Virus genome (UHGV): UHGV-1354494
DNA length: 40,788 nt
Origin: a virus
Direction: 5' to 3' (one strand)
A model generated the notes under the pieces. The model saw only the letters and a program-made list of their open reading frames with translations, searched no databases and was not told the origin of the DNA. The translations under genes and the position numbers were made by a program. Of this stretch, positions 1,150 to 26,545 are shown piece after piece (positions within the stretch are counted from its first letter, which is position 1; each line of letters starts with the position of its first letter).

Positions 1150-4100
1150 ATGTCATTTAGCAGCCGATTAAAAGAAAAGCAGGAGAAAGAAAGGGAGCAG
1201 CAAGGGAAAGAGAGAGCACAGAGGATTGTAAGGAGCGGAGAAAGCTCCTCGCAGAAACCGGTCAATGCGTTCCTGGAGCACAGACAGGCGCGGCAGAGGG
1301 AACAGGATGCACAGATGAAACAGGCAGCCCAGGCGGATCACACCATGGAAAAGACAGATTTCTTCCGCGCGGATCGTGAACAAGCGGCAAAGGACTACAC
1401 AAAGCAGAGGCTCAGCCGGTTCCAGTCGGATTTCTATGGAAACCTCACGCCCAATACATATCTGGATTCTGCCAGCAGCGAGGAACTGTCAGCACTAAGA
1501 AATGCGGAGAAGAACCGGGGGAAGCTGGCAGATATGGCAGAGGAATATGCCAGGATCCGAACAAACCGTCCGAACAATACCGTTATCACAAACAATCTGG
1601 ATACGGCTGGCAGTGAAGATTTGTCTGCATGGGCCAAGCAGGCAAAGGAGGCCAATAAAAAAGCCTACCAAAATCAGAAAGCCATGGATCAGATCGGGTT
1701 CAAGGACGAGGCAGGGGCATTCCATCGATATGACAGCCTGGAAAGGCAGGAACCCGACTTTGCTGAGATGGTAGGAGCCGGGAAGGAAAGAGACAACATC
1801 TTTGACCCGACAGCCTCTTATAGCCCTCTGGACTACCTGAACAAAGACAAACGGGCAGTAATCCAGGGATCCCAGTATAATTTCACTAAAATGACGGATA
1901 CAGAAAAGGATCTATATTATTATCTAAACGGGAAATACGGCCCCCAGGCCGCAGCCAAGTACATAAAGACACTGGGATCGGAACTGAACCGGAGGAATGT
2001 GGAGGATGTACAGGAAAGCGCATCTTCCCTGGCGAAAGAACACCCTGTCCTGGGCGTGGGGCTGGATGCCGGTATCGCAATGGCAGGGAGCGGGGCATAC
2101 CCTGTCCTGCTGGCAGAACAGGCATATAATAATATGATGGGCAGATATGATGATATCGATCCCAATGCCCCGCTGTTTGGATCCTCAGTATTGGGAGAGG
2201 GAATCCGCACGGGAATAACAAACAACGAGGCCCTGAGCAGAGCCATACCCAACGAAGGATTAAGGAACTTCCTTGTCGGGACTGGATTATCCATGACGGA
2301 AAACCTTGCAAGGCTGCCGCTGGGACACTATGGACTTGCAGCCGCCGCAGGAGGAGCTGGACTTTCGGGGACCAGGGAGGCGGTGCAGCGGGGAGGAGAT
2401 AATGGCCAGGCAATTGCATTGGGAATGGCAAATGCAGCGGCAGAGGCATTCTTTGAGAAGTTCTCGCTGGAGGGACTGGAAACCATGAAGGCGGCTCCCG
2501 GTAAAGGAGTAAGGGAATTCTTGAAGAACGTAGGGAAACAGGCCGTGACCGAAGGCTCAGAAGAGGTGTTCACAGAGATAGCAAACAGCATTTCGGATCG
2601 GGCCATCATGGGGGAACTGTCCCAATATCACCTTGCATACGAAACCTATAAAGCACAGGGGATGGATGAGAAGACGGCCAAACAGCAGGCGTTTTTAGAT
2701 TTTATGAAAAACGTAGGGGAAGCAGGCCTGGGAGGTGCATTATCAGGCGGTGTCATGGGTGCTGGAGGTCAGGCATTAGGGAAGATGCAGGAAAGCCATG
2801 CACTTAACCAATATGGAAAGGGCCTGGATGTAGATTACAGAGACTATGTCAATGGATTTTCAGGTATCCAGCAGGAAAGCTATGCAGACCCGACAGATTA
2901 TCAGGAAGCAGTGGATCTCCAGCAGATCGCCCAGGAATATGCCGATAGACAAAAAAACAAGGAGACCATATCAAACCGGGACAAAGCAGAATATGACCTC
3001 CGCTTCCGTCAGTTTGCGGAGAATACCCTGCGCCACAATGAAGAAAAAACTGCTCAAGAAACGAACCAGAATAACCAGCAGACGGAGGAAACACAGCAAT
3101 CAGAACAAACATACACCGAAGCCCCAAAAGCCGAATATGAGCCGTACAGTGAGCCGGAGACCATCCAGGACCATACCCCGGATGCAGCAGAGGAAGGACC
3201 GGAACCGGCCGCCCCACAGGGCCAGCCTGCCCTTAAGCAGGAGACCACCCAAGAAGCCGTATATACACCCGCAGAGACATCCCCACAGGATCAGACAAAA
3301 GTATACCGGAAACCATACGGTAAGAATGGGCAGAAAGCCTTAGAAAAAGGATATGACGGGAGCATTGAGCTGTCCACATACAATAAGGCCTTTGGCCGCG
3401 CCTATGATGCTGGTTATTATAATGTAGATATAGATATCGCGGAACGGTCAGCGATCCGTTCGGTCATAGGCAATGATCAATTCTTGGAAGCGTATAAAGC
3501 AGGTGCCCAGGATTACAACCTGGAAAGCAAGGTGCAGCAGACAAACATGATCCAGGGCGCCCCAAAGGTTGGAGGATTGGGAACCGTATCGGAAAATGCC
3601 ACAACCGCACAGAGAAAAGTCGCAGAGCATATAGGAAAGGCAACGGGCCTGAAAATCAACCTGGTAGACGGGATGGATCAGTCCAATGCAACCGGTTCCT
3701 ACAGGAACGGGGAGATCACCATATCCATCAACAGTAGCGACTTCAACGGATCCCTCACCCACGAACTAACACACCACATCAAAGAGTACTCTCCAAAAGG
3801 ATACAGGCTGTACACAGAAATCGCCGTAGAAGCTCTCATGAGATCAGAGAACACCTCTCTGGAGAACATTGTGGAGAGATATACAAACCAGTATGCAGAT
3901 GCCGGCCAGGAACTGACCCGGGAAGAGGTCATGGAAGAGATCGTGGCAGATGCCACGCAGAAGTTCTTCAATGATACAGAATTTATCAACTCAATCGTGA
4001 ACAAGGATAAGACGATCGCGCAGCGGATCACAGACTTTTTGTCGGATGTGATTGATTCCCTTAAGCAGCTGGTGAAAAACGGAAGCACCAGGGCAGCCGC

Positions 4101-7100
4101 AAAGGGCCTGGAAGAGGACCTGAGATACTATGAGGATGCCAGGGATGCCTGGATGCAGGCATTGGCAGATGCCGGGGAAACCTATAAATCAGGCATAGAG
4201 ACCCAAAAGGAAGGACAGAAAGAAAGGAATGCCCTGGAGAAACCGGATCAGGTAACGGAGCGGCACATCGAAGATAATTATCATACGGTAGTAAATATGG
4301 AGCCTGTAAGTTATCTTAAGGGAAACGAATTTATGAAGGGAGACAAGAACCTGGGACAACAAGTACGGGAATATTTTGCTTCCTTTGGGAATGTGGTACA
4401 CAATGATGTGGTAGGAGATATTATCATAAATAACCGTTCCTTTAAGGATGATTCTTCTCATGGGCTTGGCCGCCTTAAATCCATGACATTCAAAGCAGTG
4501 CCGGAGGTATTGAAAAATGGAAAAATTCTGAATCATTCAAAGAACTGGAAAGAAAGAGGGTATGATTCTGTAATAATTGGAGCAAAGATCAATATTGAAT
4601 CCGGGGAATACGAAGGAGATTATTATGAATTGTGCGTTGTAAAGGTAGATGAGAGCAATCGATTATATCTCCATGAAGTCCATACAACAAAGATGGATGA
4701 AGCTTCGTTCAAGACCGGGGCCACTCAAAAGAGCGGCTTGCCCGGCGAAGCTATACATCCATCTATCTATAGTATATTCGACAAACTGCTCAATGTCAAC
4801 GGAGAAGAAACGAAAAATCAAAGCGGAAAAATGAGGCTCCAGTTGGAGGATGCAGATATTGATCCGAATGACGTGAAACGCCTCCAGGAACAAAACCAGA
4901 TCCTGAGGGAAGCAAACGAACTGTTACAGGAACAGTTCAAACTCACCTCCCGGGAAGACACGCGCCAGGAGGACATAACTAAGATAGCGAAAGGGATTTT
5001 GAGCAAGTATCAAAGCGATTACAGCGAGAAAGTATTAATCAGCAACCTGACAAAGCTGTATGAGTATATCAGGAGTACTGGACAGGTAGATCGGGATGGA
5101 TTGACGGAAGCGGCTTCTGGGATCGCCAGAGGGATCCTGAAACAGACGAAATCACAAAAGCAGAGGCAGGAAGCCGACCTTGTCGAACGGTATAAAGGGG
5201 TAAGAAAGGAAATAAAGAATACCAAGATCAAGTTATCCGATCAGGATAAAGCTGACCTCGGACAGATGGGAGGCTATGAAGCATTCCGCAAAAAGTATTT
5301 TGGAAGGATCACGCTAAGCAAGGATGGTACATCCATTGACAGCCTGTACCAGGAATTAAGTGCACAGCACCCGGAATTGTTCCCGGCTGATATCACCCAC
5401 CCGGCCGACCAGCTGATGGCCGTTGCCCATGCCATTGACCAGACCCAGGAATATGTCCAGAACCCATACCATGCAGATATGGATGAGATGTCCTATATCG
5501 TAGGCCAGGAGATCATACAGTCCTATTTTGAGATCCAGAATAAGATCCCCACGTTTGCGGATCAGAAGGAAGCACAGCTGAATCAGGCCAAAGCCGACTA
5601 TGTATCCAAAATGAAGAAATATCAGGGTGATTTCAATCGAAAGATAAATCAATACAAAGCGGAACTGAATGACCGGTATACAAAGGGGATCCGTGAAGCC
5701 AATAAAGATATCGCCAATGAACGCCAGATCCTGGCAGGACAGCTGAAGCGGGCAAAGGAGCGGATGGAGAATGCAATCGGGGACGAATGGAATGAGGCGA
5801 AGAAAGAATATAATGAACTCATGGAAAGAGGCAGGGATTTAAACCGACAGGAAGCCCAGATCCGATACGTCCTGAACCCCAAAAAGTATGTAGAAAGCAT
5901 GCAAAAGGTGCGGGAGAACAAACAGAAAAGCTCCAATAAGCAGAAAATCATCAAAGATACCATGACGATCCAGAACTGGCTTCTGAAGCCGGATAATAAG
6001 AAACATGTGCCGGATGAAGTAAAAGGAATCGCGCTGGAATTTATCAAGAGCATTGACTACAGTTCAAAGTATCTGAACCAGAAAGGGGAACCGACCCAGC
6101 GTACCAGAGCATGGGATGCCCTCCAGAAGTTCTATGAATCCGTAAAAGACGGAGGGGAATGGATGGGGGAGAACAAAGAATCTGTATACTTTGACTGCGA
6201 TCCAGATATGATTAACCGGATGATGGAACTGAAGGAAAAGGTATATGATATCGAACGCTTGGAAGACCTGAGTCCACGCGAGATGGAATCCCTCCAAAAA
6301 GTAGTGAGTTCCATGAAAAAGACCATCATGGAGATGAATGACCTGAAAGCCAACAAGACGGCGAAACGGGTAGAAGAACTGGCCGGAAAAGCGCTGGGGG
6401 ATCTGGGAAAGATAGCAGGAGAAAACGGGCGAACTGAATATGGAGGCACAGCAGGATACGCAGATAAACTCCTAAACTATGACAACCTGACTCCATATAC
6501 CTTTTTCTGGAAGATGGGGAACGCTATGGAATCCATGTACAGCACTTTCAGGGGCGCAGCAGATAAAAAGACAACCATGCTGAAAGAGGCAGAGGATTAC
6601 ATAGCAGATGTAAAGAAGGAACTGAAGTTGACCCGAAAGGAGATATTGAAATGGTCTGGACCGGAGGCAAAGAAACAGACGTTCCAGGTAACAGGGGGAA
6701 GAATCACCTTGACACCGGCCCAGATCATGTCCTTGTACGAAGCGAACAAGAGAGGACAGGCCAGGGGACATATATATGGAGATGGAATAAGGAGCGCGCC
6801 GAAGCTGGCAAAAGAAAAAGGCGTAAAAGGAGCACTTAAGCCATCTCAGATCATAAAAAGCTATAAGCCGGTAAAAGTCAGTCCAGCAGATGTGGAGAAT
6901 ATCACAAGCACACTGACACCAAAACAGAAACAGTTCGCAGATGCAATACAGGAATTCCTTTCAACAAGGGCGGCTGACTGGGGGAATGAAGCATCGCTTC
7001 TGATGTATGGCTATAAGAAGTTCGTGACGAGGGATTATTTCCCCATATTAACTGATGGAAACTATATCCAGAGCAAGGAAGGGGACCTGAAAAACATGCA

Positions 7101-9225
7101 GACCACCATCCGTAACCTGGGCATGACCAAAAATACGACACCGCATGCCAATAATGCGGTTGTCATGGATGATATCCTTGATATCTTTTCCAGACACATT
7201 GACCAGATGAGTACATACAGCGCATTCCTCGCCCCACTTTCTGATTTCAACAAAGTGTATAATTATAAGAATCGGGAAAAAATGGTCAGCATCAAGCAGG
7301 AGATTGAACGGGCCATGGGCAGCCAGGCCCAGGATTATATCCAGAACCTGATCCATGACATCAATAGTGACTTCAAAGGGGATAACAACATTTTTGAAAA
7401 ATTCCTGTCAAACCAAAAAGCGGCGGCGGTAGCAGGGAGTATCAGCGTTGCAGTCCAGCAGCCATCCTCCATCCTGCGTGCTATGGCTGAAATCGATCCT
7501 AAATACCTGGGAAAAGGCATAGCTACATTCACAAGGAAGGGCCAGTGGGATCTGATCTGTAAATATGCCCCGATCGCGCAGTGGAAGGACTGGGGGTTCT
7601 ACCAGATGAACACAAGCCGATCCATCAAGGATATCATGTTTGAAACGGACAGCACACTGAGGCGCTTTACAAATAGGACTATGGTACTGGCAGAAAGAGG
7701 AGACCGCCTTGCCTGGAACCGGATCTGGAGGGCCTGTGAAAACGAGATAAGCGATAAACATAAGGACCTGAAGCCGGGAACGGAGGAATACTACCAAAAG
7801 GTAGGAGAACGCTTCTCGGAGATCATAGACAGGACACAGGTGGTGGATTCAGTCCTCCACCGCTCCCAGATCATGAGAAGGAAAGACCTGGGATTAAAAA
7901 CAGCAACCGCCTTCATGGGAGAACCGACCAGCACTTACAACATGCTTTACCGCGCAGCGGAAGGGATAAAACAGAAACGCCCCCATGCAAAGGCAAAGGC
8001 CGCCAAAACAGCCGGAGCGATTGCAGCAACCATGGTGCTGGGGGCTGCATTCAAGTCACTCGCCACTGCCCCCAGGGATGACGACCGGGATAAGGGCCTG
8101 CTGGATAAATACACGGATGCTTTCTGGGATAACCTGCTTGATTCCATTAACCCCTTAGGACTGGTGCCGTTTGGGAAAGATGTTGCATCCATTTGGCAGG
8201 GATACTCCGCAACAAGAATGGATGTCCAGGGAGTACAGGATGTTAAAAATGCAAATGATAAGATATGGAAGCTGATAGAAGGGGATAACACCATGACCCC
8301 GCAATACACCGCCGTATACGCATCAAAAATGCTGGGGAACCTTTTCGGGACACCGGCAAGCAATATCGCGAGAGAAATAGAAACCGGCTTAAATGTATAT
8401 CATCAATACATCAACAAAGGGCTTGAGGATGATTATGAATGGGCCAGACAGAAATATGAGATCAAGAACAAATCAAACCTGACCATATATGTGGATATGA
8501 TGATCGAAGCGCAGAGGAATGGGAACAAAGACCTGGAAAAACGGATCAAGACCGACTTAAACAAGAACGAAATTGATAATGAGACCATAACCGCCAAAAT
8601 CAAATCCCTCATAAAGGGAGAACTTATCTCAAAGGACCATGTGGATCCGAGGATCGAGGAAGCAGCCCAGGCCAGGATGGCAGCGGATACAGAATCCTAT
8701 AAAGCAGCGGTCAGTGAACTGATTGCAGAGGGATATGCCGGAAAGCTGGTAAGCTCCGCTGTAGACACCAGGATCAACCAGTTAAGCGGGGAAGAGGAGA
8801 TTGACTGGGAGGAAGAGGCCGCAACGGATCCAGATGAACTGTACGGAGAGATCCTGACTGGAGAAGCGGAAGGGGAAGACTGGGATATATATTCGTCCGC
8901 AGATATCCTGAAAGCAGTTGACCAGGTGGGAACCACCGTGGAAAGCGCAAAAGCCTTTAAAAAGATCACAACCGAAATCGTAGACACCAAAGTCAAAGCC
9001 GGAAAGACCAAAAATGATGCCATAGGGGATATCAAGTCCTCCATCAGCCGCAGATACAAGCAGGAATGGATTGAGGCCTACCTGGCCAAAGATCAGAAAG
9101 GATACGAAGCAATCATGGCCAAACTGAACCGCCTGACAGTGAATGGAAAGAACCTGTACACGGGAGAGGATTATACCAAGTGGAGAAAAGAAGCGAAGGA
9201 GAAAGAAAAGGAAGGAAAAAAGTAG
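1150..9225 (+). CDS. Giant 2691-aa multidomain protein: charged/coiled N-terminus, Gly/Ala-zipper hydrophobic segments (about nt 2040-2790), HExxH zincin-like motif (HELTHH, nt 3760-3777), many coiled-coil stretches. Candidate ejected polyvalent virion protein or an atypical tape-measure-like protein.
   Basis: Uninterrupted 8 kb ORF with RBS aaggaggaaatATG. Shows GxxxG/AxxxA-rich hydrophobic segments typical of tape-measure and ejection proteins. Shows a HExxH preceded by a beta-strand-like segment, as in minimal zincins (ArdC/SprT-like) of phage polyvalent proteins. Followed by a rho-independent terminator. Confidence 0.85.
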   Translation: MSFSSRLKEKQEKEREQQGKERAQRIVRSGESSSQKPVNAFLEHRQARQREQDAQMKQAAQADHTMEKTDFFRADREQAAKDYTKQRLSRFQSDFYGNLTPNTYLDSASSEELSALRNAEKNRGKLADMAEEYARIRTNRPNNTVITNNLDTAGSEDLSAWAKQAKEANKKAYQNQKAMDQIGFKDEAGAFHRYDSLERQEPDFAEMVGAGKERDNIFDPTASYSPLDYLNKDKRAVIQGSQYNFTKMTDTEKDLYYYLNGKYGPQAAAKYIKTLGSELNRRNVEDVQESASSLAKEHPVLGVGLDAGIAMAGSGAYPVLLAEQAYNNMMGRYDDIDPNAPLFGSSVLGEGIRTGITNNEALSRAIPNEGLRNFLVGTGLSMTENLARLPLGHYGLAAAAGGAGLSGTREAVQRGGDNGQAIALGMANAAAEAFFEKFSLEGLETMKAAPGKGVREFLKNVGKQAVTEGSEEVFTEIANSISDRAIMGELSQYHLAYETYKAQGMDEKTAKQQAFLDFMKNVGEAGLGGALSGGVMGAGGQALGKMQESHALNQYGKGLDVDYRDYVNGFSGIQQESYADPTDYQEAVDLQQIAQEYADRQKNKETISNRDKAEYDLRFRQFAENTLRHNEEKTAQETNQNNQQTEETQQSEQTYTEAPKAEYEPYSEPETIQDHTPDAAEEGPEPAAPQGQPALKQETTQEAVYTPAETSPQDQTKVYRKPYGKNGQKALEKGYDGSIELSTYNKAFGRAYDAGYYNVDIDIAERSAIRSVIGNDQFLEAYKAGAQDYNLESKVQQTNMIQGAPKVGGLGTVSENATTAQRKVAEHIGKATGLKINLVDGMDQSNATGSYRNGEITISINSSDFNGSLTHELTHHIKEYSPKGYRLYTEIAVEALMRSENTSLENIVERYTNQYADAGQELTREEVMEEIVADATQKFFNDTEFINSIVNKDKTIAQRITDFLSDVIDSLKQLVKNGSTRAAAKGLEEDLRYYEDARDAWMQALADAGETYKSGIETQKEGQKERNALEKPDQVTERHIEDNYHTVVNMEPVSYLKGNEFMKGDKNLGQQVREYFASFGNVVHNDVVGDIIINNRSFKDDSSHGLGRLKSMTFKAVPEVLKNGKILNHSKNWKERGYDSVIIGAKINIESGEYEGDYYELCVVKVDESNRLYLHEVHTTKMDEASFKTGATQKSGLPGEAIHPSIYSIFDKLLNVNGEETKNQSGKMRLQLEDADIDPNDVKRLQEQNQILREANELLQEQFKLTSREDTRQEDITKIAKGILSKYQSDYSEKVLISNLTKLYEYIRSTGQVDRDGLTEAASGIARGILKQTKSQKQRQEADLVERYKGVRKEIKNTKIKLSDQDKADLGQMGGYEAFRKKYFGRITLSKDGTSIDSLYQELSAQHPELFPADITHPADQLMAVAHAIDQTQEYVQNPYHADMDEMSYIVGQEIIQSYFEIQNKIPTFADQKEAQLNQAKADYVSKMKKYQGDFNRKINQYKAELNDRYTKGIREANKDIANERQILAGQLKRAKERMENAIGDEWNEAKKEYNELMERGRDLNRQEAQIRYVLNPKKYVESMQKVRENKQKSSNKQKIIKDTMTIQNWLLKPDNKKHVPDEVKGIALEFIKSIDYSSKYLNQKGEPTQRTRAWDALQKFYESVKDGGEWMGENKESVYFDCDPDMINRMMELKEKVYDIERLEDLSPREMESLQKVVSSMKKTIMEMNDLKANKTAKRVEELAGKALGDLGKIAGENGRTEYGGTAGYADKLLNYDNLTPYTFFWKMGNAMESMYSTFRGAADKKTTMLKEAEDYIADVKKELKLTRKEILKWSGPEAKKQTFQVTGGRITLTPAQIMSLYEANKRGQARGHIYGDGIRSAPKLAKEKGVKGALKPSQIIKSYKPVKVSPADVENITSTLTPKQKQFADAIQEFLSTRAADWGNEASLLMYGYKKFVTRDYFPILTDGNYIQSKEGDLKNMQTTIRNLGMTKNTTPHANNAVVMDDILDIFSRHIDQMSTYSAFLAPLSDFNKVYNYKNREKMVSIKQEIERAMGSQAQDYIQNLIHDINSDFKGDNNIFEKFLSNQKAAAVAGSISVAVQQPSSILRAMAEIDPKYLGKGIATFTRKGQWDLICKYAPIAQWKDWGFYQMNTSRSIKDIMFETDSTLRRFTNRTMVLAERGDRLAWNRIWRACENEISDKHKDLKPGTEEYYQKVGERFSEIIDRTQVVDSVLHRSQIMRRKDLGLKTATAFMGEPTSTYNMLYRAAEGIKQKRPHAKAKAAKTAGAIAATMVLGAAFKSLATAPRDDDRDKGLLDKYTDAFWDNLLDSINPLGLVPFGKDVASIWQGYSATRMDVQGVQDVKNANDKIWKLIEGDNTMTPQYTAVYASKMLGNLFGTPASNIAREIETGLNVYHQYINKGLEDDYEWARQKYEIKNKSNLTIYVDMMIEAQRNGNKDLEKRIKTDLNKNEIDNETITAKIKSLIKGELISKDHVDPRIEEAAQARMAADTESYKAAVSELIAEGYAGKLVSSAVDTRINQLSGEEEIDWEEEAATDPDELYGEILTGEAEGEDWDIYSSADILKAVDQVGTTVESAKAFKKITTEIVDTKVKAGKTKNDAIGDIKSSISRRYKQEWIEAYLAKDQKGYEAIMAKLNRLTVNGKNLYTGEDYTKWRKEAKEKEKEGKK

Positions 9226-9380: not shown

Positions 9381-9423
9381 ACAGCAACAGCCTAAACGGA
9401 CTAGCTCACCGTAACGAGCAAGA

Positions 9424-9460
9424 AAAACCCCAGAGTGGCCGCTCTGGGGTTTTTCGCTTT
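9424..9460 (+). terminator. Rho-independent terminator after the giant gene and micro-peptide.
   Basis: Hairpin ccccagag-tggccgc-tctgggg followed by TTTTTCGCTTT. Confidence 0.6.
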
Positions 9461-9753
9461 GTCCTGCATGAATAAAGTATCTCAGCATTTATTTGGCTAA
9501 TATAATAATATGCCCTGCGAAGAGAAAAGTCAATGGAAATTTTAATAAAAAGACCCCGGGCCCGAAGGATGCCGGAGTACGTTCAGTTACTATAATATGC
9601 CCTTTTTAGGGGAAAGTCAATAGGATTTCTCAAAATAGCAAGTTTTGAACAGGTATTGCAAATAATGCGAAAAAAATTCATTAAATACCATAATTTACCA
9701 CTACACCGGTTTATATTCAGGAGTAAAATAATTATATAAGGAGGTGCGTGGAG

Positions 9754-11810: not shown

Positions 11811-12335
11811 GTGGATTGTTTGGAAGAGCGTTTAAAAAGCCTCAGAAGCGCATTGAATATGAATCAAAAAGATTTTGCCCAATCACTAGGTTTGGGACAA
11901 TCTACGTGGGCCATGATTGAAATTGGAAAGCGTGAACTCAATGATAGACATGTAAAACTTATATGTTCTATTCATAATGTCAATAAAAATTGGCTTCTGA
12001 CAGGCAACGGCAAAATGTTTGTCCAGCTGTCGCAAGATGATGAGACAGCACATATTGTCCAGGACATGTTAGGCAGCAACGCCGGAAGCTTTTATAATAT
12101 CGTATTAGAAGTTGCCAAGAGTTACAAAAAGCTAAGCCCAACTTCTCAAAAGGCATTGGATGAACTGGCTGACAATTCATTGGCTAGTTTGGTTAACAAA
12201 GAAGAGAAGGATGAATCTGAAATGACATTTGACGAATTGATTGCTGAGTGCCCAAAGACACCAGAAGAACTGGAGCGGTTATATCCACCAGTCGAATTTA
12301 AGCCGAAGGTTGTCAAGGCACCCAAAATTCCGTAA
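11811..12335 (+). CDS. XRE-family HTH transcriptional regulator (phage repressor-like), GTG start.
   Basis: HTH_3 signature NMNQKDFAQSLGLGQSTWAMIEIGKRE. RBS aaaggagg plus GTG. Divergent from the recombinase. A TGnGATAAT-like extended -10 lies upstream. Confidence 0.8.
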   Translation: MDCLEERLKSLRSALNMNQKDFAQSLGLGQSTWAMIEIGKRELNDRHVKLICSIHNVNKNWLLTGNGKMFVQLSQDDETAHIVQDMLGSNAGSFYNIVLEVAKSYKKLSPTSQKALDELADNSLASLVNKEEKDESEMTFDELIAECPKTPEELERLYPPVEFKPKVVKAPKIP

Positions 12336-16230: not shown

Positions 16231-16770
16231 ATGATAAAAGTCAAAGATGTAGAAGCGTTCAGGGAATCCCTGAAAAAGGGAGATAAGCTTATATACATAG
16301 AGGATGCCCCTAGAGATGAAGGGATGAAAGGCCGCGCAAAGATCAAACGGATCATGACAGTGGACAAGGTACATAAACACACAGTAGACCTGGTCCAAGG
16401 CAAAATAAAACGCAACGCAATGCTGAAGGAAGTCCTGATCTGCAACTTAAAACAGCCGATCGTCCCCCTTCCTGCACCGGTTAACCGTGCGGAAACCAGA
16501 GAAACGAAAAAGAACAAAATCATGAACATGGTATATCACGGACTGGATCAGGACGAGATAGTCAAAAGAACAGGCTACAGTAAAAAAACAGTAGCCAATA
16601 TTATACGCCACGTCAAACAGAAGGGCCAGGACGCGGCAAACCGAAATGCCCAGATCATCAAGCTGAAACAAGAAGGAATGAAAACAAAGGACGTGGCCCT
16701 AAAGCTGGACTGTAGCAAAAGCCTAGTCTGCGAAGTATATAAGCGATACAGGGAGAAAAAAGGAACATGA
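16231..16770 (+). CDS. Putative transcriptional regulator with two C-terminal sigma-70 region-4/resolvase-like HTH repeats (candidate late-gene activator).
   Basis: Duplicated HTH segments (GLDQDEIVKRTGYSKKTVANIIRH and EGMKTKDVALKLDCSKSLVCEVYKRY). RBS aaggagacgtggagatataaaATG. Confidence 0.55.
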   Translation: MIKVKDVEAFRESLKKGDKLIYIEDAPRDEGMKGRAKIKRIMTVDKVHKHTVDLVQGKIKRNAMLKEVLICNLKQPIVPLPAPVNRAETRETKKNKIMNMVYHGLDQDEIVKRTGYSKKTVANIIRHVKQKGQDAANRNAQIIKLKQEGMKTKDVALKLDCSKSLVCEVYKRYREKKGT

Positions 16771-19847: not shown

Positions 19848-20012
19848 ATGTATTTAAACATTGAATATAGAGATGGAAAGACAGAACAGAAAATCGTGGA
19901 TGATTGTACCGTTAAAGATGGGTGCCTAAAGTATTATATCAGGACAGGAAGAGATGCTGGCACGCATTATATTCCATTGGATATTATCAAAGAGTTTCAT
20001 AAAGAGAATTAG
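19848..20012 (+). CDS. Small hypothetical protein (54 aa).
   Basis: RBS ggagga 6 nt before the ATG. Confidence 0.35.
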   Translation: MYLNIEYRDGKTEQKIVDDCTVKDGCLKYYIRTGRDAGTHYIPLDIIKEFHKEN

Positions 20013-21690: not shown

Positions 21691-22737
21691 ATGAATAACG
21701 CAGAAAATCAGAGTGTAAAAGCGCAGATCATCAATAACGTGATCGTATCAATGACTTACTACCTTAACCCGGATGTTCTGGAAATGTTGGAGCGCGTCTT
21801 GGCTAAAAATCTGGTGGATGTGGTAATAGAACGGATTAACACATTGCCGATGGAAATGAAGGACAGCATAGACAGCCAGAACGGGTACATATTGCAGTTG
21901 TTTTTGTACAAGAAGAAGAAACTTCAGGACGGGACAAAATACGGCTATGTCAGTGCGATCAAACGGCTGGTAACCCTGGTGTATAAGCCTCTGACAGACA
22001 TGGAGGAATCAGACATCTATTATTACCTGGATTGGTATGAAAACCGGAATGTATCCATAACCGGCAAGAAGAACCAGGCGAGGACGATCAACAACGAGCG
22101 CCGCTTTCTATCGGCTTTTTTCACCTGGATGAGAAAGGAAAAGTTGATTGGCAGCAACCCGGTGGAAGCAATCGAGCCGCTAAAGGTAACGAAGAAACCG
22201 ATCGATTATTTTACCCCGGAGGAGATGGCAAGCCTGAAGGATGGGTGCGAAAGCCTGCGGGAAAGGGCCGTGATCGAAGTGTTGAGGAGTACAGGGGCCA
22301 GGGTTGGGGAAATCGTTGGGATTACCATTGACCTGATCAACTGGGAGACTGGAGATGTCATGATCTTAGGAGAGAAGGGAAACCGATACCGTACCCTGTA
22401 CCTGGATCCAGATGCCATACACCATTTCAGAAAGTATTTAAATAGCCGGACAGACAACAACCCAGCCATATTTGTCAGCTCTAAGAAGCCGCACCAGGCA
22501 TTATCTACCTGCGCGATCCGTGGGATCGTAAAAGAGGTGGCACAGCGGGCCGGAATCACCAGCCGCGCTTATCCTCATAAGATGCGCAAGACCCTGGGCA
22601 TGGAACTGAAGAATAAAGGCGTGGATATAGGCACCATACAAGAGATCATGGGACATGCAGACAGTAAGGTCACATCCTTATATTATGCGCAATCAACCCC
22701 AGACACATTGCGAGTGATCCGTAACAAAGCGGCATAG
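21691..22737 (+). CDS. int: Tyrosine integrase (phage integrase family).
   Basis: Catalytic signatures RSTGARVGE (Arg), HKMRKT (HxxR) and GHADSKVTSLYY (His and Tyr nucleophile). 348 aa. Adjacent to the tRNA-like fragment. Confidence 0.9.
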   Translation: MNNAENQSVKAQIINNVIVSMTYYLNPDVLEMLERVLAKNLVDVVIERINTLPMEMKDSIDSQNGYILQLFLYKKKKLQDGTKYGYVSAIKRLVTLVYKPLTDMEESDIYYYLDWYENRNVSITGKKNQARTINNERRFLSAFFTWMRKEKLIGSNPVEAIEPLKVTKKPIDYFTPEEMASLKDGCESLRERAVIEVLRSTGARVGEIVGITIDLINWETGDVMILGEKGNRYRTLYLDPDAIHHFRKYLNSRTDNNPAIFVSSKKPHQALSTCAIRGIVKEVAQRAGITSRAYPHKMRKTLGMELKNKGVDIGTIQEIMGHADSKVTSLYYAQSTPDTLRVIRNKAA

Positions 22738-22881
22738 CCCATAAATAGCGAATATATTCAGAAAATTACCAAAGTTAACAGAAAATAATGATCAAAAAAC
22801 CAGCGGGGAGAGGCCCCGCATCCAACTCGATAACTTTATTAAGATAAGACCCTTCCCCCTGCCAACCAGGGGGATAACCAT

Positions 22882-23718
22882 ATGAGGAGTAACACAATGG
22901 CATGTATAGAGAGCGTATGCTATGCAGGCAGGACAAAGCACATCCGGGCATACTATTCAGCAAAGTACAATGATGGAAAATTGGTACAGAGGGAGAAAAG
23001 GGAAAAGAAGGAGAAGCCCACCAGTGAGAAGCAGGCGGAGATCAACCGGAGGAACTCCCTTCGGACCCTGACACGGACCATGGATGCAAACTTTTCAGGG
23101 GAAGACTTGTATGTGACATACAGCTTCGGGAAGGACAAGCGCCCAGGGAGCCCGGAGAAGTTCCGGGCATGCATCAGACAGTTTTTAAAGCAGCTGCGCA
23201 AACTCTACAGACAGGCCGGAGTGATCCTAAAGTACATCTGGGTGGCAGAGCGGGGAGAGCGGGGAGCCGAGCATATACATATGGTCCAGTCGGGAGGTAT
23301 TGATATCAGCAAATTGAAGATCGCATGGCCCCATGGCTGGATCAATGCAGTGCCCATGGATGAGAGCGGGAGCTACCACAAGCTGGCTGCCTATTTTATC
23401 AAGTATTCAGATAAAACCATGCGGACGGAAGGGAGATTCCAGGGAAAGCGTTATAATCCATCCCGCAACCTGATCCACCCGGAACCGGAAAAGGCCAAGG
23501 TAAGGAAACGCGGCCGGATCGACCCAGGCGCGATCCAGGTGCCGGATGGATACTATCTGGACAAGGAGACCATACAGTCAGGCGTGCAGGAAAATGGTTA
23601 CGAGTTTTTAGAATATACCTTAGTCCTGCTGCCAGGCTACCACATACCGGCCCATGACCGGGCGAACGCCAAACAGAACAGACAGAGCCGGCAGCGAAGG
23701 AAAAAGCGGTCCAGATAA
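22882..23718 (+). CDS. rep: HUH rolling-circle replication initiator (Rep_1/phiX-A-like).
   Basis: Motif 1 LYVTYSF. Motif 2 AEHIHMVQSG (HUH). Motif 3 LAAYFIKYSDK (YxxKY..K). A 7-bp hairpin and the CAGGGGGATAACC element lie upstream. Confidence 0.65.
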   Translation: MRSNTMACIESVCYAGRTKHIRAYYSAKYNDGKLVQREKREKKEKPTSEKQAEINRRNSLRTLTRTMDANFSGEDLYVTYSFGKDKRPGSPEKFRACIRQFLKQLRKLYRQAGVILKYIWVAERGERGAEHIHMVQSGGIDISKLKIAWPHGWINAVPMDESGSYHKLAAYFIKYSDKTMRTEGRFQGKRYNPSRNLIHPEPEKAKVRKRGRIDPGAIQVPDGYYLDKETIQSGVQENGYEFLEYTLVLLPGYHIPAHDRANAKQNRQSRQRRKKRSR

Positions 23719-23756
23719 GGGCCGCCGCTTATTGTGCGCATCAGGGAGGTGAGGGG

Positions 23757-24194
23757 ATGCCAAACACGAGGGCGGTATGCTGCCCGTATTACATAACACG
23801 CAGCACGGCGGATAAGCGGATGGCGACCATCACATGCGCCAATATAGAAAATCATCTGGGCTTTGATATCAAGAACCAGATTGTTTTTGATGCTCATACG
23901 GAGAAAGAAAACTATGTCGGTATATTTTGTGCTGACATGTTTGATACATGCCCGTACTACCGGGCGATCTATGGATATGACAAGAAGAAAGGAGAAACAG
24001 ACAATGAAAAAGACCAGCCTTGCCCAAAAGGTAAAAACGGCGGAACGCAGGGAAAGGGATGCCAAAAGGAGGATGCAGGAGAAAGACAAGGAGATGCGCC
24101 GGTCCAATGCGATTGCAGACGGAGCCATGCTGTGGGTGGCAGCCCTGGCGTCCAAGCTGGGCCCAACTGTACATATAGCGGCAGAGGAATTTGA
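23757..24194 (+). CDS. Cys-rich hypothetical protein (CCPYY...C...C...CPYY). The C-terminal half looks like out-of-frame low complexity, and the real end is uncertain.
   Basis: ORF directly after rep. The N-terminal 80 aa has a repeated CPYY Cys arrangement. Overlaps the ORF starting at 24004 in another frame. Confidence 0.35.
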   Translation: MPNTRAVCCPYYITRSTADKRMATITCANIENHLGFDIKNQIVFDAHTEKENYVGIFCADMFDTCPYYRAIYGYDKKKGETDNEKDQPCPKGKNGGTQGKGCQKEDAGERQGDAPVQCDCRRSHAVGGSPGVQAGPNCTYSGRGI

Positions 24195-24297
24195 GCAGGC
24201 CAAGGGCCTGACATACTTAGCCAAAAAGAATGAAGACGGATCCATGGACATGAAACAGGAAGGATATGAGGAGGAAGCAGCCATGGACCAGGAATGA
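24004..24297 (+). CDS. Basic/acidic hypothetical protein (97 aa).
   Basis: RBS gaaaggagaaacagacaATG. Plausible composition. Overlaps the 3' part of the 23757 ORF. Confidence 0.4.
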   Translation: MKKTSLAQKVKTAERRERDAKRRMQEKDKEMRRSNAIADGAMLWVAALASKLGPTVHIAAEEFEQAKGLTYLAKKNEDGSMDMKQEGYEEEAAMDQE

Positions 24298-24428
24298 TGC
24301 TGTCCATGGACCGGACAGACCGGACACCCAATGCGCACACATGCCCGCGCCCGCGCGCGCGATAAGGAAGAGGAGCACCCGAAGAGGGTGCTTTTGCGCA
24401 CCTCAAAACCAGACAAAACCGGACAGAC

Positions 24429-24457
24429 GCTTAGGGTGGGAGACACAATTTCTGGAC
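24429..24457 (+). promoter_or_regulatory. 29-bp element GCTTAGGGTGGGAGACACAATTTCTGGAC (copy 1), upstream of TerS: candidate late promoter/activator site.
   Basis: 28/29 identical to the copy at 28801-28829. Followed by an A/T-rich -10-like stretch (tatgctaaaatata). Confidence 0.5.
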
Positions 24458-24495
24458 TATGCTAAAATATACCGCAACAAGAAAGGAGGCGGGCT

Positions 24496-25068
24496 GTGGC
24501 AAGGCAGAAGTGGCAGGAATGGGCAGAAAATGAAGACAGGCTGTCCATATTGGCGGCATGGGCCAGGGCAGGGAAGACGGATGAGGAGATCGCCAAGCTG
24601 ATCGGGATCAGCCGGTCTACCCTCAGTGAGTGGAAAAAGAAGCATGAATCCATAGGAAAGGCCCTGAGCATCACTAAGGACTACGCAGACCGCCTGATAG
24701 AGGGAAGCCTGTATAAGATAGCCCGTGGATATACAGTGACCAATAAAAAGCCGATCAAAACCCGGCATGTGACATACACAAACGGAGTAAAGACCGCAGA
24801 GGATGAGATCATTGAATACGCGGAAGAAACCATCTATGTCCCAGGGGAAGCAAGACTGATCATGTTCTGGCTGGAGAACAGGATGCCGGAATGGCGCAAA
24901 CGGTACGAGAAAGCAAGGGATCTTGATGGCGATGAAGAGAACCAGACCGGCACCGTTGTTATGAGCACAGACATAGCGGAAGATATCAAACAACTCATGG
25001 AGGAAGAAAAGAGTGCAAGAGAAGAGAAAGAACGCAGGGAAGAACAAGACTGGAAAGAAAACAGATAA
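24496..25068 (+). CDS. terS: Terminase small subunit (HTH, Terminase_2-like), GTG start.
   Basis: HTH (IAKLIGISRSTLSEWKKK) and the characteristic FWLENRMPEWRKR segment. RBS aaaggagg. Immediately upstream of TerL. Confidence 0.8.
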   Translation: MARQKWQEWAENEDRLSILAAWARAGKTDEEIAKLIGISRSTLSEWKKKHESIGKALSITKDYADRLIEGSLYKIARGYTVTNKKPIKTRHVTYTNGVKTAEDEIIEYAEETIYVPGEARLIMFWLENRMPEWRKRYEKARDLDGDEENQTGTVVMSTDIAEDIKQLMEEEKSAREEKERREEQDWKENR

Positions 25069-25087
25069 GGCAGAAGCAAGGGAATTT

Positions 25088-26536
25088 ATGAGGACCCACA
25101 ACGTCATATGGGCTCCCTCCAAAAGACAGCAGGCCATGATGACACGGCTGGAGTTTGAAGGCCTGTATGGAGGGGCTGCCGGAGGTGGGAAAACAGATTA
25201 CCTGCTGGTGGAAGCGCTACGGCAGGTGCGTATCCGCGAATACCGGGCAATCATATTCAGAAAAACATACCCGGAACTGGAAGACCTGATCAGCAGATCC
25301 ATGGAGTTGTACAGGGCGGCGTTCCCCAAAGCCCGCTATAACTCAAGTCGCCACGTATGGACATTTCCCAGCGGGGCAAAGATCTATTTCGGGTCCATGC
25401 AGTACCCCAAGGACCGCTTAAAGTATCAAGGCCGCCATTTTGACTTTGTAGGTTTTGACGAACTAACGCATTTTGGTTGGGACGAATACAATTATCTGTT
25501 TTCCCGCGTACGATCAAGTGCACCGGGGCTGCGCAGGTATATCCGGTCTACAGCCAATCCGGGAGGCCCGGGCCATGGATGGGTCAAGTCGAGATTTGTT
25601 TCACCGGCAGAGCCGGGTACAACCATTGTGGAGACAAAAGAGACCACAGATCCCAAAGGGAATATCCTGCGTTTTACAAGGGATCGTGTATTCATTCCGA
25701 GTAAGGTGTTCGATAATCCAGATCTGATACGTAACAACCCGGATTATGTCGCATCCCTGGCAATGATGCCGGAAGCCCTGAGAAAGGCCCTGCTGGATGG
25801 GGATTGGGATTCATTTAACGGACAGGTATTCACTGAATGGAGGAACGACCCGGAAAATTATGATACAAGGCAGTGGACGCATGTGATTAGCCCATTCAGG
25901 ATCCCGGACGGATGGCTGGTCGGACGCAGCTACGATTTTGGCTATGCAAAACCATTCTCTGTCGGCTGGTATGCCATTGACTATACCGGCTGCGTGTACC
26001 GGATCCGGGAGCTGTATGGTTGCGTAGACAAGGAACCGAACACAGGAATCAAGATCGATCCCACCGAACAGGCCAGGAGAATCAAGGAAATAGAGAACAC
26101 GGATGAGAACCTGAAAGGAAGAAACATAGTAGGGATTGCAGACCCGTCCATATTTGACACCAGCCACGGGGATTCCATTGCGGATCTCATGGCCCGGGAG
26201 GGCGTATACTGGAGCCCGGGAGACAACCAGCGTATCGCAGGGAAGATGCAGTACCATTACCGGCTGGCATTCAATAAAGACGGCCTGCCTATGTTTTATG
26301 TATTTGACACTTGCAGGGAATTCATCCGCACGATCCCCCAGCTGGTCTATGACGAAAAGAAAGTGGAGGATATTGATACAACCCAGGAGGACCACATCTA
26401 TGACGAGTGCCGGTACTTCCTCATGGAGCACATGATCGCCCGGCGGGAAAACACAAAGAAGCCGGTTCCAATGGATGACCCGCTGGATCTGTATAAAGAC
26501 GAGAGGAAAAAGGCATATAAATTCATCAGGATATAG
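25088..26536 (+). CDS. terL: Terminase large subunit.
   Basis: Walker A GGAAGGGKT. Size and position between TerS and portal. Acidic nuclease-domain residues present. ATG at 25088 with an RBS. Confidence 0.85.
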   Translation: MRTHNVIWAPSKRQQAMMTRLEFEGLYGGAAGGGKTDYLLVEALRQVRIREYRAIIFRKTYPELEDLISRSMELYRAAFPKARYNSSRHVWTFPSGAKIYFGSMQYPKDRLKYQGRHFDFVGFDELTHFGWDEYNYLFSRVRSSAPGLRRYIRSTANPGGPGHGWVKSRFVSPAEPGTTIVETKETTDPKGNILRFTRDRVFIPSKVFDNPDLIRNNPDYVASLAMMPEALRKALLDGDWDSFNGQVFTEWRNDPENYDTRQWTHVISPFRIPDGWLVGRSYDFGYAKPFSVGWYAIDYTGCVYRIRELYGCVDKEPNTGIKIDPTEQARRIKEIENTDENLKGRNIVGIADPSIFDTSHGDSIADLMAREGVYWSPGDNQRIAGKMQYHYRLAFNKDGLPMFYVFDTCREFIRTIPQLVYDEKKVEDIDTTQEDHIYDECRYFLMEHMIARRENTKKPVPMDDPLDLYKDERKKAYKFIRI

Positions 26537-26545
26537 GAGGCAGAT

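What the first reader, a model, noticed from the sequence alone, without database searches (positions are those of the whole stretch)
24429..24457. 29-bp element repeated upstream of terS and upstream of scaffold/capsid: candidate phage late promoter or activator-binding site
GCTTAGGGTGGGAGACA(C/T)AATTTCTGGAC occurs at 24429-24457 (intergenic, before terS) and at 28801-28829, where it overlaps the last codons of prp before the scaffold gene. It is 28/29 identical. Each copy is followed within about 10 bp by an A/T-rich -10-like stretch. No host-like -35 is present, which suggests dependence on a phage-encoded activator or sigma-like factor. The double-HTH protein at 16231-16770 has region-4-like HTHs and is a candidate.
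Basis: seen in the sequence. Interest (0 to 1): 0.6.

Follow-up and report, generated by a model that had tools for sequence, protein, structure and literature searches.

The report
Matched pair of phage late promoters
The repeated 29-bp element is the upstream half of two matching promoters, one before the DNA-packaging genes and one before the scaffold and capsid genes of a gut Lachnospiraceae prophage; related phages keep the same pair but change its recognition box in step, which points to a phage-specified regulator that is still unidentified.

Summary
Each copy is a G-rich box (GGGTGGGAGA, about -41 to -32), then 16 nt, then an extended -10 (TGCTAAAAT / TGATAACAT). Both face the late genes.

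In 14 related phage lineages (portal 57-98% identical to the window's where measured; several are Lachnospiraceae prophages) the same two positions carry the same design. The box is 100% identical between the two sites inside every genome but only 62% identical between genomes. Exactly two copies were found in each genome stretch searched. The terS copy is non-coding. The second copy overlaps the last Prp codons in most lineages but lies after the stop in one.

This fits two co-regulated late promoters that use host sigma-A for the -10 and a phage-specified factor at the box. No transcription data exist.

A small 4-Cys protein gene next to terS (23757-~23990) tracks the box better, but this is unproven.

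The kind of element is known (activator-dependent late promoters); this motif and its likely factor are undescribed.

A tandem hairpin array in the scaffold 5'UTR was also noticed.

The parts
24429..24457 (+). Copy 1 of the 29-bp element, the upstream half of the terS promoter (about -46 to -18 relative to the inferred start)
24434..24443 (+). Box GGGTGGGAGA at site 1 (about -41 to -32): the lineage-specific recognition core
24460..24468 (+). Extended -10, TGC TAAAAT. The inferred transcription start is near 24475; RBS AAAGGAGG at 24482-24489; terS GTG at 24496
   Evidence: the start site is inferred, not mapped
24374..24392 (+). Hairpin plus T-run just upstream of site 1. It is present with a covarying stem in all lineages and probably ends early/middle transcription, so terS needs its own promoter
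24405..24424 (+). Two 10-bp direct repeats, AAAACCAGAC AAAACCGGAC, abutting site 1 only. They are conserved whatever the box type; their role is unknown (UP-like, TerS/pac or regulator site)
28796..28824 (+). Copy 2 of the 29-bp element, the upstream half of the scaffold/capsid promoter. It overlaps the last 6 codons and the stop of prp
28801..28810 (+). Box GGGTGGGAGA at site 2. It encodes G-W-E of the Prp C-terminus
28827..28835 (+). Extended -10, TGA TAACAT. The inferred transcription start is near 28842
   Evidence: spacing conserved in relatives
28852..28966 (+). Five tandem 23-nt hairpin units (loop GA(A/G)AGA) filling the inferred 5'UTR up to the scaffold RBS and ATG at 28979. Associated feature, function unknown
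23757..23990 (+). 'geneA': a small protein with four invariant Cys, encoded just upstream of terS. Best but unproven candidate for the box-recognising factor. The ORF runs on to 24194; the conserved part ends near 23990
16231..16770 (+). Disfavoured

Best explanation
The two copies are the upstream halves of two co-regulated late promoters of a temperate phage of Lachnospiraceae. P(terS) would drive terS-terL-portal-prp. P(scaffold) sits inside the end of prp and would add transcription of scaffold, capsid and downstream genes. Shown: each site has a 10-nt G-rich box, exactly 16 nt, then an extended -10 (TGnTAnnnT), facing the late genes. The layout and the two positions are conserved across 14 lineages. 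The box is identical between the two sites of every genome and differs between genomes. There are only two copies in each genome stretch searched. A terminator-like hairpin precedes site 1 in the lineages examined. Inferred: host sigma-A holoenzyme reads the extended -10. The box, which sits where a -35 would be and does not resemble TTGACA, is contacted by a phage-specified protein that recruits or stabilises RNA polymerase (class II / -35-replacing activation). This would tie both operons to one late signal. Because one protein must read both sites, they evolve in concert. Because site 2 is also coding sequence for the Prp C-terminus (L-G-W/V-E) in most lineages, the GGGGTG core changes slowly. 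The identity of the factor is not established. The small 4-Cys protein encoded next to terS (23757-~23990) is the best candidate.
For: Repeat real and non-random. Extended -10 at both copies; copy 1 was picked up by the promoter scan with TG. The same box-N16-extended -10 design occurs at both positions in diverged relatives. In 14 lineages aligned on the -10, box identity is 1.00 within a genome and 0.62 between genomes, and 0 of 100000 partner permutations reach the observed sum. Exactly two copies were found in each genome stretch searched, always on the late-gene strand. Site 1 is non-coding: stops in all frames in L032 (read). In lineage G6 the site-2 box lies after the prp stop. The element has no RNA structure (z -1.0) and no Rfam match. 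Canonical TTGACT-17-TATTAT promoters occur elsewhere in the window, so the host -35 is ordinary. geneA: present next to terS in 13 of the 14 aligned lineages and missing only in L159 (not detected in the partial G5 locus L027), including distant L143, which lacks the recombinase and Rep. A pattern-only search also recovered a geneA-family ORF followed by G-rich box promoters before a different terS family. L217 has a window-like recombinase (95%) but G4-like geneA (82%) and a G4-like box. Box divergence tracks geneA (rho 0.69) and the head genes, not the recombinase (0.06), terS (0.22) or Rep (0.33).
Against: There are no transcript, start-site or binding data, so promoter activity, timing and the need for an activator are all inferred. 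An extended -10 can work without any -35 contact, so the box could be an operator for a repressor rather than an activator site. geneA lies about 400 bp from site 1, so co-inheritance could reflect linkage, and its correlation with the box is no better than that of terL, portal or scaffold. geneA is not basic and has no recognisable DNA-binding fold. Its structure model was poor (pLDDT 52). It is not next to terS in L027 and L159. Distant family members L291 and L294 are not followed by a G-rich box. Most boxes share GGGGTG, so a conserved host factor is not excluded.
Confidence: 0.7

Rival explanations
1. The two sites are constitutive sigma-A extended -10 promoters, and the shared box is an operator where a phage repressor holds the late genes off in the lysogen or early in infection (negative rather than positive control).
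For: Extended -10 promoters need no -35 contact (established knowledge). The box overlaps the -35 region, where a bound protein would block polymerase. Concerted evolution of the pair fits any shared DNA-binding protein.
Against: The box does not occur in the lysogeny-switch region or anywhere else in the window, so the CI-like repressor (11811-12335) would not be the binder. Known temperate phages of Gram-positive bacteria use positive control at terS (PMC3753634). The hexamers are imperfect (TAACAT, TAGCAT, TATGGT).
Confidence: 0.12
2. One reading: the box is a -35-type element read by the sigma region 4-like double-HTH protein 16231-16770, acting as a sigma-like or sigma-appropriating factor.
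For: Weak sigma70_r4_2, GerE and sigma70-ECF matches to HTH1 (4e-5, 3e-6 and 2e-5, mostly below family cut-offs). The G4 homologue differs in both recognition helices while the box differs. Lineage G3 has another sigma-r4-like plus alpha-CTD-like protein in the same slot.
Against: Homologues were found only in G1, G4 and the L019 lineage. In L217 the protein is closer to the window's (50%) than to G4's (40%), but the box is G4-type. L132 has the same box as the window but no homologue in the 10 kb held upstream of terS, a stretch that holds lysis genes rather than its early region. In L128, which also has the window's box, only a partial match to the HTH region was found. The protein has no sigma region 2. 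The gene lies 7.7 kb from terS, unlike known late regulators.
Confidence: 0.1
3. The direct repeats are recombination sites for the adjacent tyrosine recombinase (21691-22737) and flank an excisable or invertible 4.37-kb terS-prp segment.
For: A XerC/D-like recombinase gene lies 1.7 kb upstream and is conserved in most lineages. The repeats are direct and about 29-47 bp long.
Against: There are no inverted arms around a central spacer. The recombinase is 88-95% identical between genomes with different boxes, and its divergence does not track the box (rho 0.06). L143 has the pair but no recombinase in the 10 kb held upstream of terS. Only about 10-14 nt are conserved, at a fixed distance from a -10. 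Excision would delete essential packaging genes.
Confidence: 0.03
4. It is a repeated coding or RNA-level motif, or a neutral leftover of a duplication, with no regulatory role.
For: Copy 2 overlaps prp codons. In the window an unconserved ORF (24266-24601) happens to read copy 1 in the same L-G-W-E-T frame.
Against: That ORF is broken by stops in relatives (L032). In G6 the box lies outside prp. There is no RNA structure and no Rfam hit. A neutral duplicate would not stay 100% matched at the box across 14 lineages while its flanks diverge.
Confidence: 0.03

Closest known systems
Ltr-dependent terS late promoters of Gram-positive temperate phages (RinA, ArpU, LtrA/sigma70_r4, LtrB/DUF1492, LtrC; PMC3753634, PMC3152322)
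   Same: A temperate phage of Firmicutes. A late promoter lies directly upstream of terS, after the terminator of the preceding gene. Recognition sequences are phage-specific. [quoted passage not shown]
   Different: No Ltr-family protein was detected here. Ltr proteins bind direct repeats placed upstream of a single terS promoter. Here the shared element is a single box in the -35 position and it is duplicated at a second promoter in front of the scaffold gene.
Phage Mu late promoters Plys, PI, PP and Pmom activated by C (PMC4461284)
   Same: Several late promoters in one genome share an activator site that overlaps a poor -35, combined with a host sigma-70-type -10.
   Different: Mu C binds a dyad-symmetric site as a dimer, and this box has no dyad. 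No Mor/C homologue was found. Different host phylum.
T4 middle promoters (MotA box plus sigma-70 -10, sigma appropriation with AsiA) - from general knowledge
   Same: A phage-specific box replaces the -35 while the host sigma reads an often extended -10.
   Different: The MotA box is centred near -30 and this box near -36. No MotA or AsiA homologues. Lytic coliphage versus temperate Clostridia phage.
P2/P4 Ogr/Delta zinc-finger late activators - from general knowledge
   Same: A small 4-Cys zinc protein controls several late promoters. This resembles the geneA candidate.
   Different: No detectable sequence similarity. P2 late promoters carry a dyad near -55, not a box at -41 to -32.

Membership tests
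Sigma-A (sigma-70-type) extended -10 promoter | TGn immediately upstream of a TAnnnT hexamer, correctly oriented and placed before a gene with an RBS | tested here: met
   TGCTAAAAT at 24460-24468 before terS and TGATAACAT at 28827-28835 before scaffold. The TAnnnT hexamer is kept at 28 of 28 aligned sites and the TGn at 23 of them.
Sigma-A (sigma-70-type) extended -10 promoter | Transcription starts about 6-8 nt downstream of the hexamer | not testable with these tools
   No transcript data are available.
Activator-dependent phage late promoter (class II / -35-replacing) | No functional -35; instead a conserved, phage-specific sequence at about -45 to -30, shared by the late promoters of one genome | tested here: met
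   Box at -41 to -32: 100% identical within a genome, 62% between genomes, 0 of 100000 permutations. Two copies in each genome stretch searched. Ordinary TTGAC -35 elements occur elsewhere in the window.
Activator-dependent phage late promoter (class II / -35-replacing) | Activity requires a phage-encoded protein that binds the box | not testable with these tools
   Only indirect evidence: geneA tracks the box type.
Ltr superfamily system (RinA/ArpU/LtrA/LtrB/LtrC) | [quoted passage not shown] | tested here: not met
   The genes adjacent to terS (23757-24020, 24004-24297) have no Pfam, PHROG or NCBIfam hit. The only sigma70_r4-like hit is weak and lies 7.7 kb upstream.
Ltr superfamily system (RinA/ArpU/LtrA/LtrB/LtrC) | Direct repeats just distal to the regulator gene, upstream of the terS promoter, that serve as the binding site | tested here: inconclusive
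   Two AAAACCGGAC repeats at 24405-24424 fit the position. However, they are the same in lineages with different boxes and are absent from site 2.
Alternative or phage sigma factor promoter | A phage-encoded sigma with regions 2 and 4, and a non-sigma-A -10 | tested here: not met
   No protein with sigma region 2 was found in the window. The -10 is sigma-A-like.
Xer/dif-type tyrosine recombinase site | Two inverted ~11-bp arms around a 6-8 bp spacer; the site co-varies with its recombinase | tested here: not met
   No dyad in the element. The recombinase is 88-95% identical across different boxes, rho 0.06.
Known RNA family (Rfam) | A covariance-model match at or near the gathering score | tested here: not met
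   0 hits at gathering score over the window. Only chance-level hits (E > 2) in 24150-29100.

The most novel reading that the evidence does not exclude
The small 4-Cys protein encoded next to terS (geneA; 68 clusters among 1.84 billion representative proteins, no annotation) founds a new family of late-gene activators for gut Clostridia phages. It would read a G-rich box in place of the -35 at two promoters. The second promoter feeds a 5'UTR made of tandem GA(A/G)AGA-loop hairpins that acts as an RNA operator setting scaffold and capsid output. Together these would be a two-layer late-expression circuit not described in any phage.
Probability: 0.25. Interest if true: 0.6.

Novelty: new member of a known kind. 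Interest (0 to 1): 0.4.

Why it matters
Late-gene control is unknown for the abundant temperate phages of gut Lachnospiraceae. This work gives a concrete, testable promoter motif: a box, 16 nt, then an extended -10, always in two copies. That motif can be used to annotate late operons and to predict induction read-outs in metagenomes. Because the two sites change together between lineages, natural box-swap experiments are available for finding the regulator. One relative is a prophage of a cultured isolate (Lacrimispora sp. 210928-DFI.3.58), so experiments are feasible. The kind of mechanism is well known from other phages, so the general surprise is moderate.

Tried and rejected
- Rfam, at gathering score on the whole window and at permissive E-value on 24150-29100: nothing.
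- RNA folding of the 47-nt element: no structure.
- Exact-pattern scan of 185,579 species genomes for the window-type element: 0 hits. Relatives were reached only through protein-based searches.
- GenBank phage collection: only unannotated fragments at 63-72% identity.
- Tyrosine recombinase and rolling-circle Rep as box readers: rejected, because they do not co-vary with the box.
- 16231-16770 as box reader: disfavoured.
- PDB sequence searches with 16231-16770 and geneA: no meaningful hits.
- AlphaFold model of geneA from a shallow alignment: pLDDT 52, so no fold search was run.
- The window-like relative in IMG/VR (contig 2858547677_000001) is stored only from position 19881. Its early region could not be examined, so the missing 16231 hit there is not evidence.
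- L008, one of the pattern hits, looks like a chance match next to a serine recombinase.
- Distant geneA-family members gave mixed contexts.
- A third copy before tail or lysis genes: none.

Full report
**Observation**

The 29-mer GCTTAGGGTGGGAGACA(C/T)AATTTCTGGAC occurs twice on the + strand, at 24429-24457 and at 28796-28824. None were found in 100 shuffles even with 3 mismatches allowed. Similarity extends to 47 nt at 85%. No further copy exists in the window. This holds for the 10-nt core GGGTGGGAGA with one mismatch, and for two mismatches plus a downstream extended -10.

**Gene context**

- Tyrosine recombinase, 21691-22737
- Rolling-circle Rep (PF23343), 22882-23718
- Two small overlapping genes: 'geneA' 23757-~23990 and 'geneB' 24004-24297
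- Non-coding stretch containing copy 1
- terS 24496-25068, terL 25013-26536, P22-like portal 26546-28471
- Prp protease 28468-28815, whose last codons (S-L-G-W-E-T-stop) are copy 2
- A 163-nt gap, then scaffold 28979-29884 and major capsid protein 29899-30891

The window also holds a serine integrase, a CI-like repressor and a Rha-like protein, so this is a temperate phage.

**Anatomy**

Both copies have the same layout. GGGTGGGAGA is followed by exactly 16 nt and then an extended -10:

- Site 1: box 24434-24443, TGC TAAAAT at 24460-24468
- Site 2: box 28801-28810, TGA TAACAT at 28827-28835

The consensus scan listed site 1 as GAGACA-17-TAAAAT with a TG. The box therefore lies at about -41 to -32.

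Site 1 is preceded by a hairpin plus T-run (24374-24392) and is followed by an RBS and terS within about 25 nt. Site 2 is followed by a roughly 137-nt leader. The 47-nt element itself has no significant RNA structure (z -1.0). Rfam finds nothing.

**Relatives**

Pattern and protein-guided searches recovered many related phage contigs and prophages. Where measured, their portals are 57-98% identical to the window's.

The closest genomes with names are Lachnospiraceae: Lacrimispora sp. 210928-DFI.3.58, Enterocloster lavalensis, an Enterocloster MAG and Clostridium sp. AM22-11AC. The window's own phage occurs in many human-gut assemblies, once as a prophage in a 101-kb bacterial contig.

In every lineage, the best shared oligomer between the region upstream of terS and the prp/scaffold junction is this same design: a box, then 16 nt, then TGnTAnnnT.

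| Lineage | Box |
|---|---|
| Window, G2, L128, L132 | GGGTGGGAGA |
| L131, L224 | GGGTGGTAGA |
| G3 | GGGTGGGGGC |
| G5 | GGGTGGGGGA |
| G4 | GGGTGTTGGA |
| L129 | GGTGGCAGGAACAT |
| G6 | CTGTGCAAAC |
| L143 | GGGGGGTTAGAA |
| L159 | GGTGGGTTAGA |

With 14 lineages aligned on the -10:

- The box is 100% identical between the two sites of each genome but 62% identical between genomes.
- The flanks are 49-64% identical within a genome and 31-41% between genomes.
- The extended -10 is equally conserved within and between genomes (0.64-0.69).
- Shuffling the partners never reached the observed matching, 0 of 100000.
- Each genome stretch searched (14-41 kb) holds exactly two copies, always on the late-gene strand.

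In the L019 lineage, which is outside the 14-lineage alignment, the two boxes differ at one base: GGGTGTTGGA at site 1 and GGGTGCTGGA at site 2.

**What this excludes**

- Site 1 is not coding. The window ORF 24266-24601 that happens to read it as L-G-W-E-T is interrupted by stops in all frames in L032 (read).
- The element is not simply the Prp C-terminus. In G6 the box lies after the prp stop.
- In the other lineages the box doubles as codons for L-G-W/V-E. This probably explains why the GGGGTG core is slow to change. That last point is an inference.

**What it most likely is**

These are two late promoters read by host sigma-A through the extended -10. The -35 is replaced by a box that one trans-acting factor must recognise at both places.

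The host's ordinary -35 is used elsewhere in the phage: TTGACT-17-TATTAT occurs twice at 9505-9620 on the - strand. The terminator before site 1 means terS needs its own promoter. Site 2 has no terminator before it, so it would add transcripts for the proteins needed in hundreds of copies.

All steps beyond sequence conservation are inferred: activity, timing, and activation versus repression. An operator for a repressor would explain the same pattern and is kept as the main rival.

**Who reads the box**

*No known late regulator.* No known late-regulator family (RinA, ArpU, DUF1492, LtrC, Mor/C, MotA) and no sigma with region 2 was found among the early and middle genes.

HTH1 matches sigma70_r4_2, GerE and sigma70-ECF only weakly. 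Its record across lineages argues against it:

- Homologues exist only in G1, G4 (37-39% identical) and the L019 lineage.
- In L217 the homologue is closer to the window's (50%) than to G4's (40%), although the box is G4-type.
- G3 has unrelated genes in that slot, one of them sigma-r4-like plus alpha-CTD-like.

*Recombinase and Rep.* The tyrosine recombinase is 88-95% identical between genomes with different boxes. Its divergence does not follow the box (rho 0.06), and Rep follows it only weakly (0.33).

*geneA, the better fit.*

- It has four invariant Cys (C9, C27, C58, C65) and is about 75 aa long. It has no Pfam, PHROG, NCBIfam or PDB match, and 68 clusters among 1.84 billion representatives.
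- It sits next to terS in nearly all lineages, including distant L143, which lacks the recombinase and Rep.
- L217 has G4-like geneA (82%) together with a G4-like box.
- Box divergence correlates with geneA divergence (rho 0.69). It correlates similarly with terL, portal, Prp and scaffold (0.69-0.87), but not with terS, which lies between them (0.22).
- The unbiased pattern search also found a phage with a different terS family (phrog_1206) in which a geneA-family ORF is followed by two promoters of this G-rich-box type. L293 is similar.

*Against geneA.*

- It is physically close to site 1, so linkage could explain the association.
- It is slightly acidic (residue count from the translation).
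- Its structure model was poor.
- It is not next to terS in L027 and L159.
- Two distant family members are not followed by a G-rich box.

I put geneA at about 0.3 and 16231-16770 at about 0.1.

**Comparison with known systems**

Functionally this resembles the activator-dependent late promoters of Gram-positive temperate phages. In those, Ltr proteins bind phage-specific repeats upstream of a single terS promoter (PMC3753634).

It resembles Mu even more closely. There several late promoters share a C-protein site over a poor -35 (PMC4461284). T4 MotA-box promoters are a further analogue (general knowledge).

It is not a member of the Ltr system as defined. There is no Ltr-family gene, the shared element is a single box at -35 rather than upstream repeats, and there are two promoters. 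The AAAACCGGAC x2 repeats at 24405-24424 occupy the position of an Ltr site. However, they do not change with the box and are absent from site 2.

**Verdict**

- The promoter and activator-site reading is well supported by comparison but untested by experiment.
- The proposed factor is probably wrong.
- The kind of element is known. This motif, its paired and concerted evolution, its overlap with prp codons and its likely regulator are undescribed.
- Interest is moderate.

Noticed in passing
window 28852-28966 (also L128 14284-14380, L032 5738-5830, L029 5727-5795 and others): Five tandem 23-nt units fill the inferred 5'UTR of the scaffold gene. Each is a short hairpin with loop GA(A/G)AGA and a GACAC 5' flank. 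The RNA fold has z -5.1. Two to five units sit at the same place in most lineages. In 25 units the three inner pairs are always paired, with compensatory GC->AU and CG->UA changes. No Rfam match. This could be an RNA operator or a stabiliser for scaffold/capsid expression.
   Followed up: partly
window 24300-24428: A conserved non-coding block lies between geneB and the terS promoter in all lineages. It contains CCGGACA repeats, an alternating GC tract (GCGCGCGCG, about 24344-24361), a terminator hairpin with a covarying stem, and two AAAACCGGAC direct repeats. It sits next to a rolling-circle Rep gene, so it could be a replication origin or nick site, a pac site or a regulator site.
   Followed up: partly
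L001 8538-8681 / L034 (IMGVR_UViG_2858547677_000001): In a 98-99% identical relative, the change ACATAA to ACAACA inside copy 2 removes the prp stop codon. The prp ORF becomes 157 aa and runs through the hairpin array. The box and the -10 are kept.
   Followed up: no
window 21691-24297 and related loci: A conserved module of XerC/D-like tyrosine recombinase, HUH rolling-circle Rep (PF23343), a 4-Cys small protein and sometimes a basic coiled-coil protein sits directly upstream of terS, separate from the serine integrase used for lysogeny. The Rep family has hundreds of relatives in IMG/VR. In L132 a NikA/MobC-like gene precedes the module. The recombinase, Rep and terS have a different recombination history from the head genes.
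   Followed up: partly
window 23757-24297: The geneA ORF (23757-24194) overlaps geneB (24004-24297) in another frame by about 190 nt. Only the first ~77 codons of geneA are conserved, and the length of its tail varies between relatives (145, 107 and 116 aa).
   Followed up: partly
L046 3900-5113 (lineage G3): The slot of the window's 16231 gene holds split genes here. One is a 171-aa protein with a sigma region 4.2-like HTH followed by an RNA polymerase alpha-CTD/helix-hairpin-helix-like segment. This was read from the sequence only, not tested with profiles.
   Followed up: no
window 31759-32178: Five tandem 84-nt (28-codon) repeats, 71-100% identical, lie inside the 647-aa ORF 31177-33120 downstream of the capsid gene.
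   Followed up: no
window 9505-9548 and 9592-9635: A 44-nt direct repeat (73% identical) carries a canonical TTGACT-17-TATTAT promoter on the - strand in each copy. It lies near a strong bidirectional-looking terminator at 9422-9455, between the 2691-aa ORF and the serine integrase.
   Followed up: no
window 1150-9225: A single 2691-aa ORF with no family assignment attempted, presumably a tail or tape-measure-like giant protein. The window appears to be a circular permutation of a whole ~40.8-kb phage genome.
   Followed up: no
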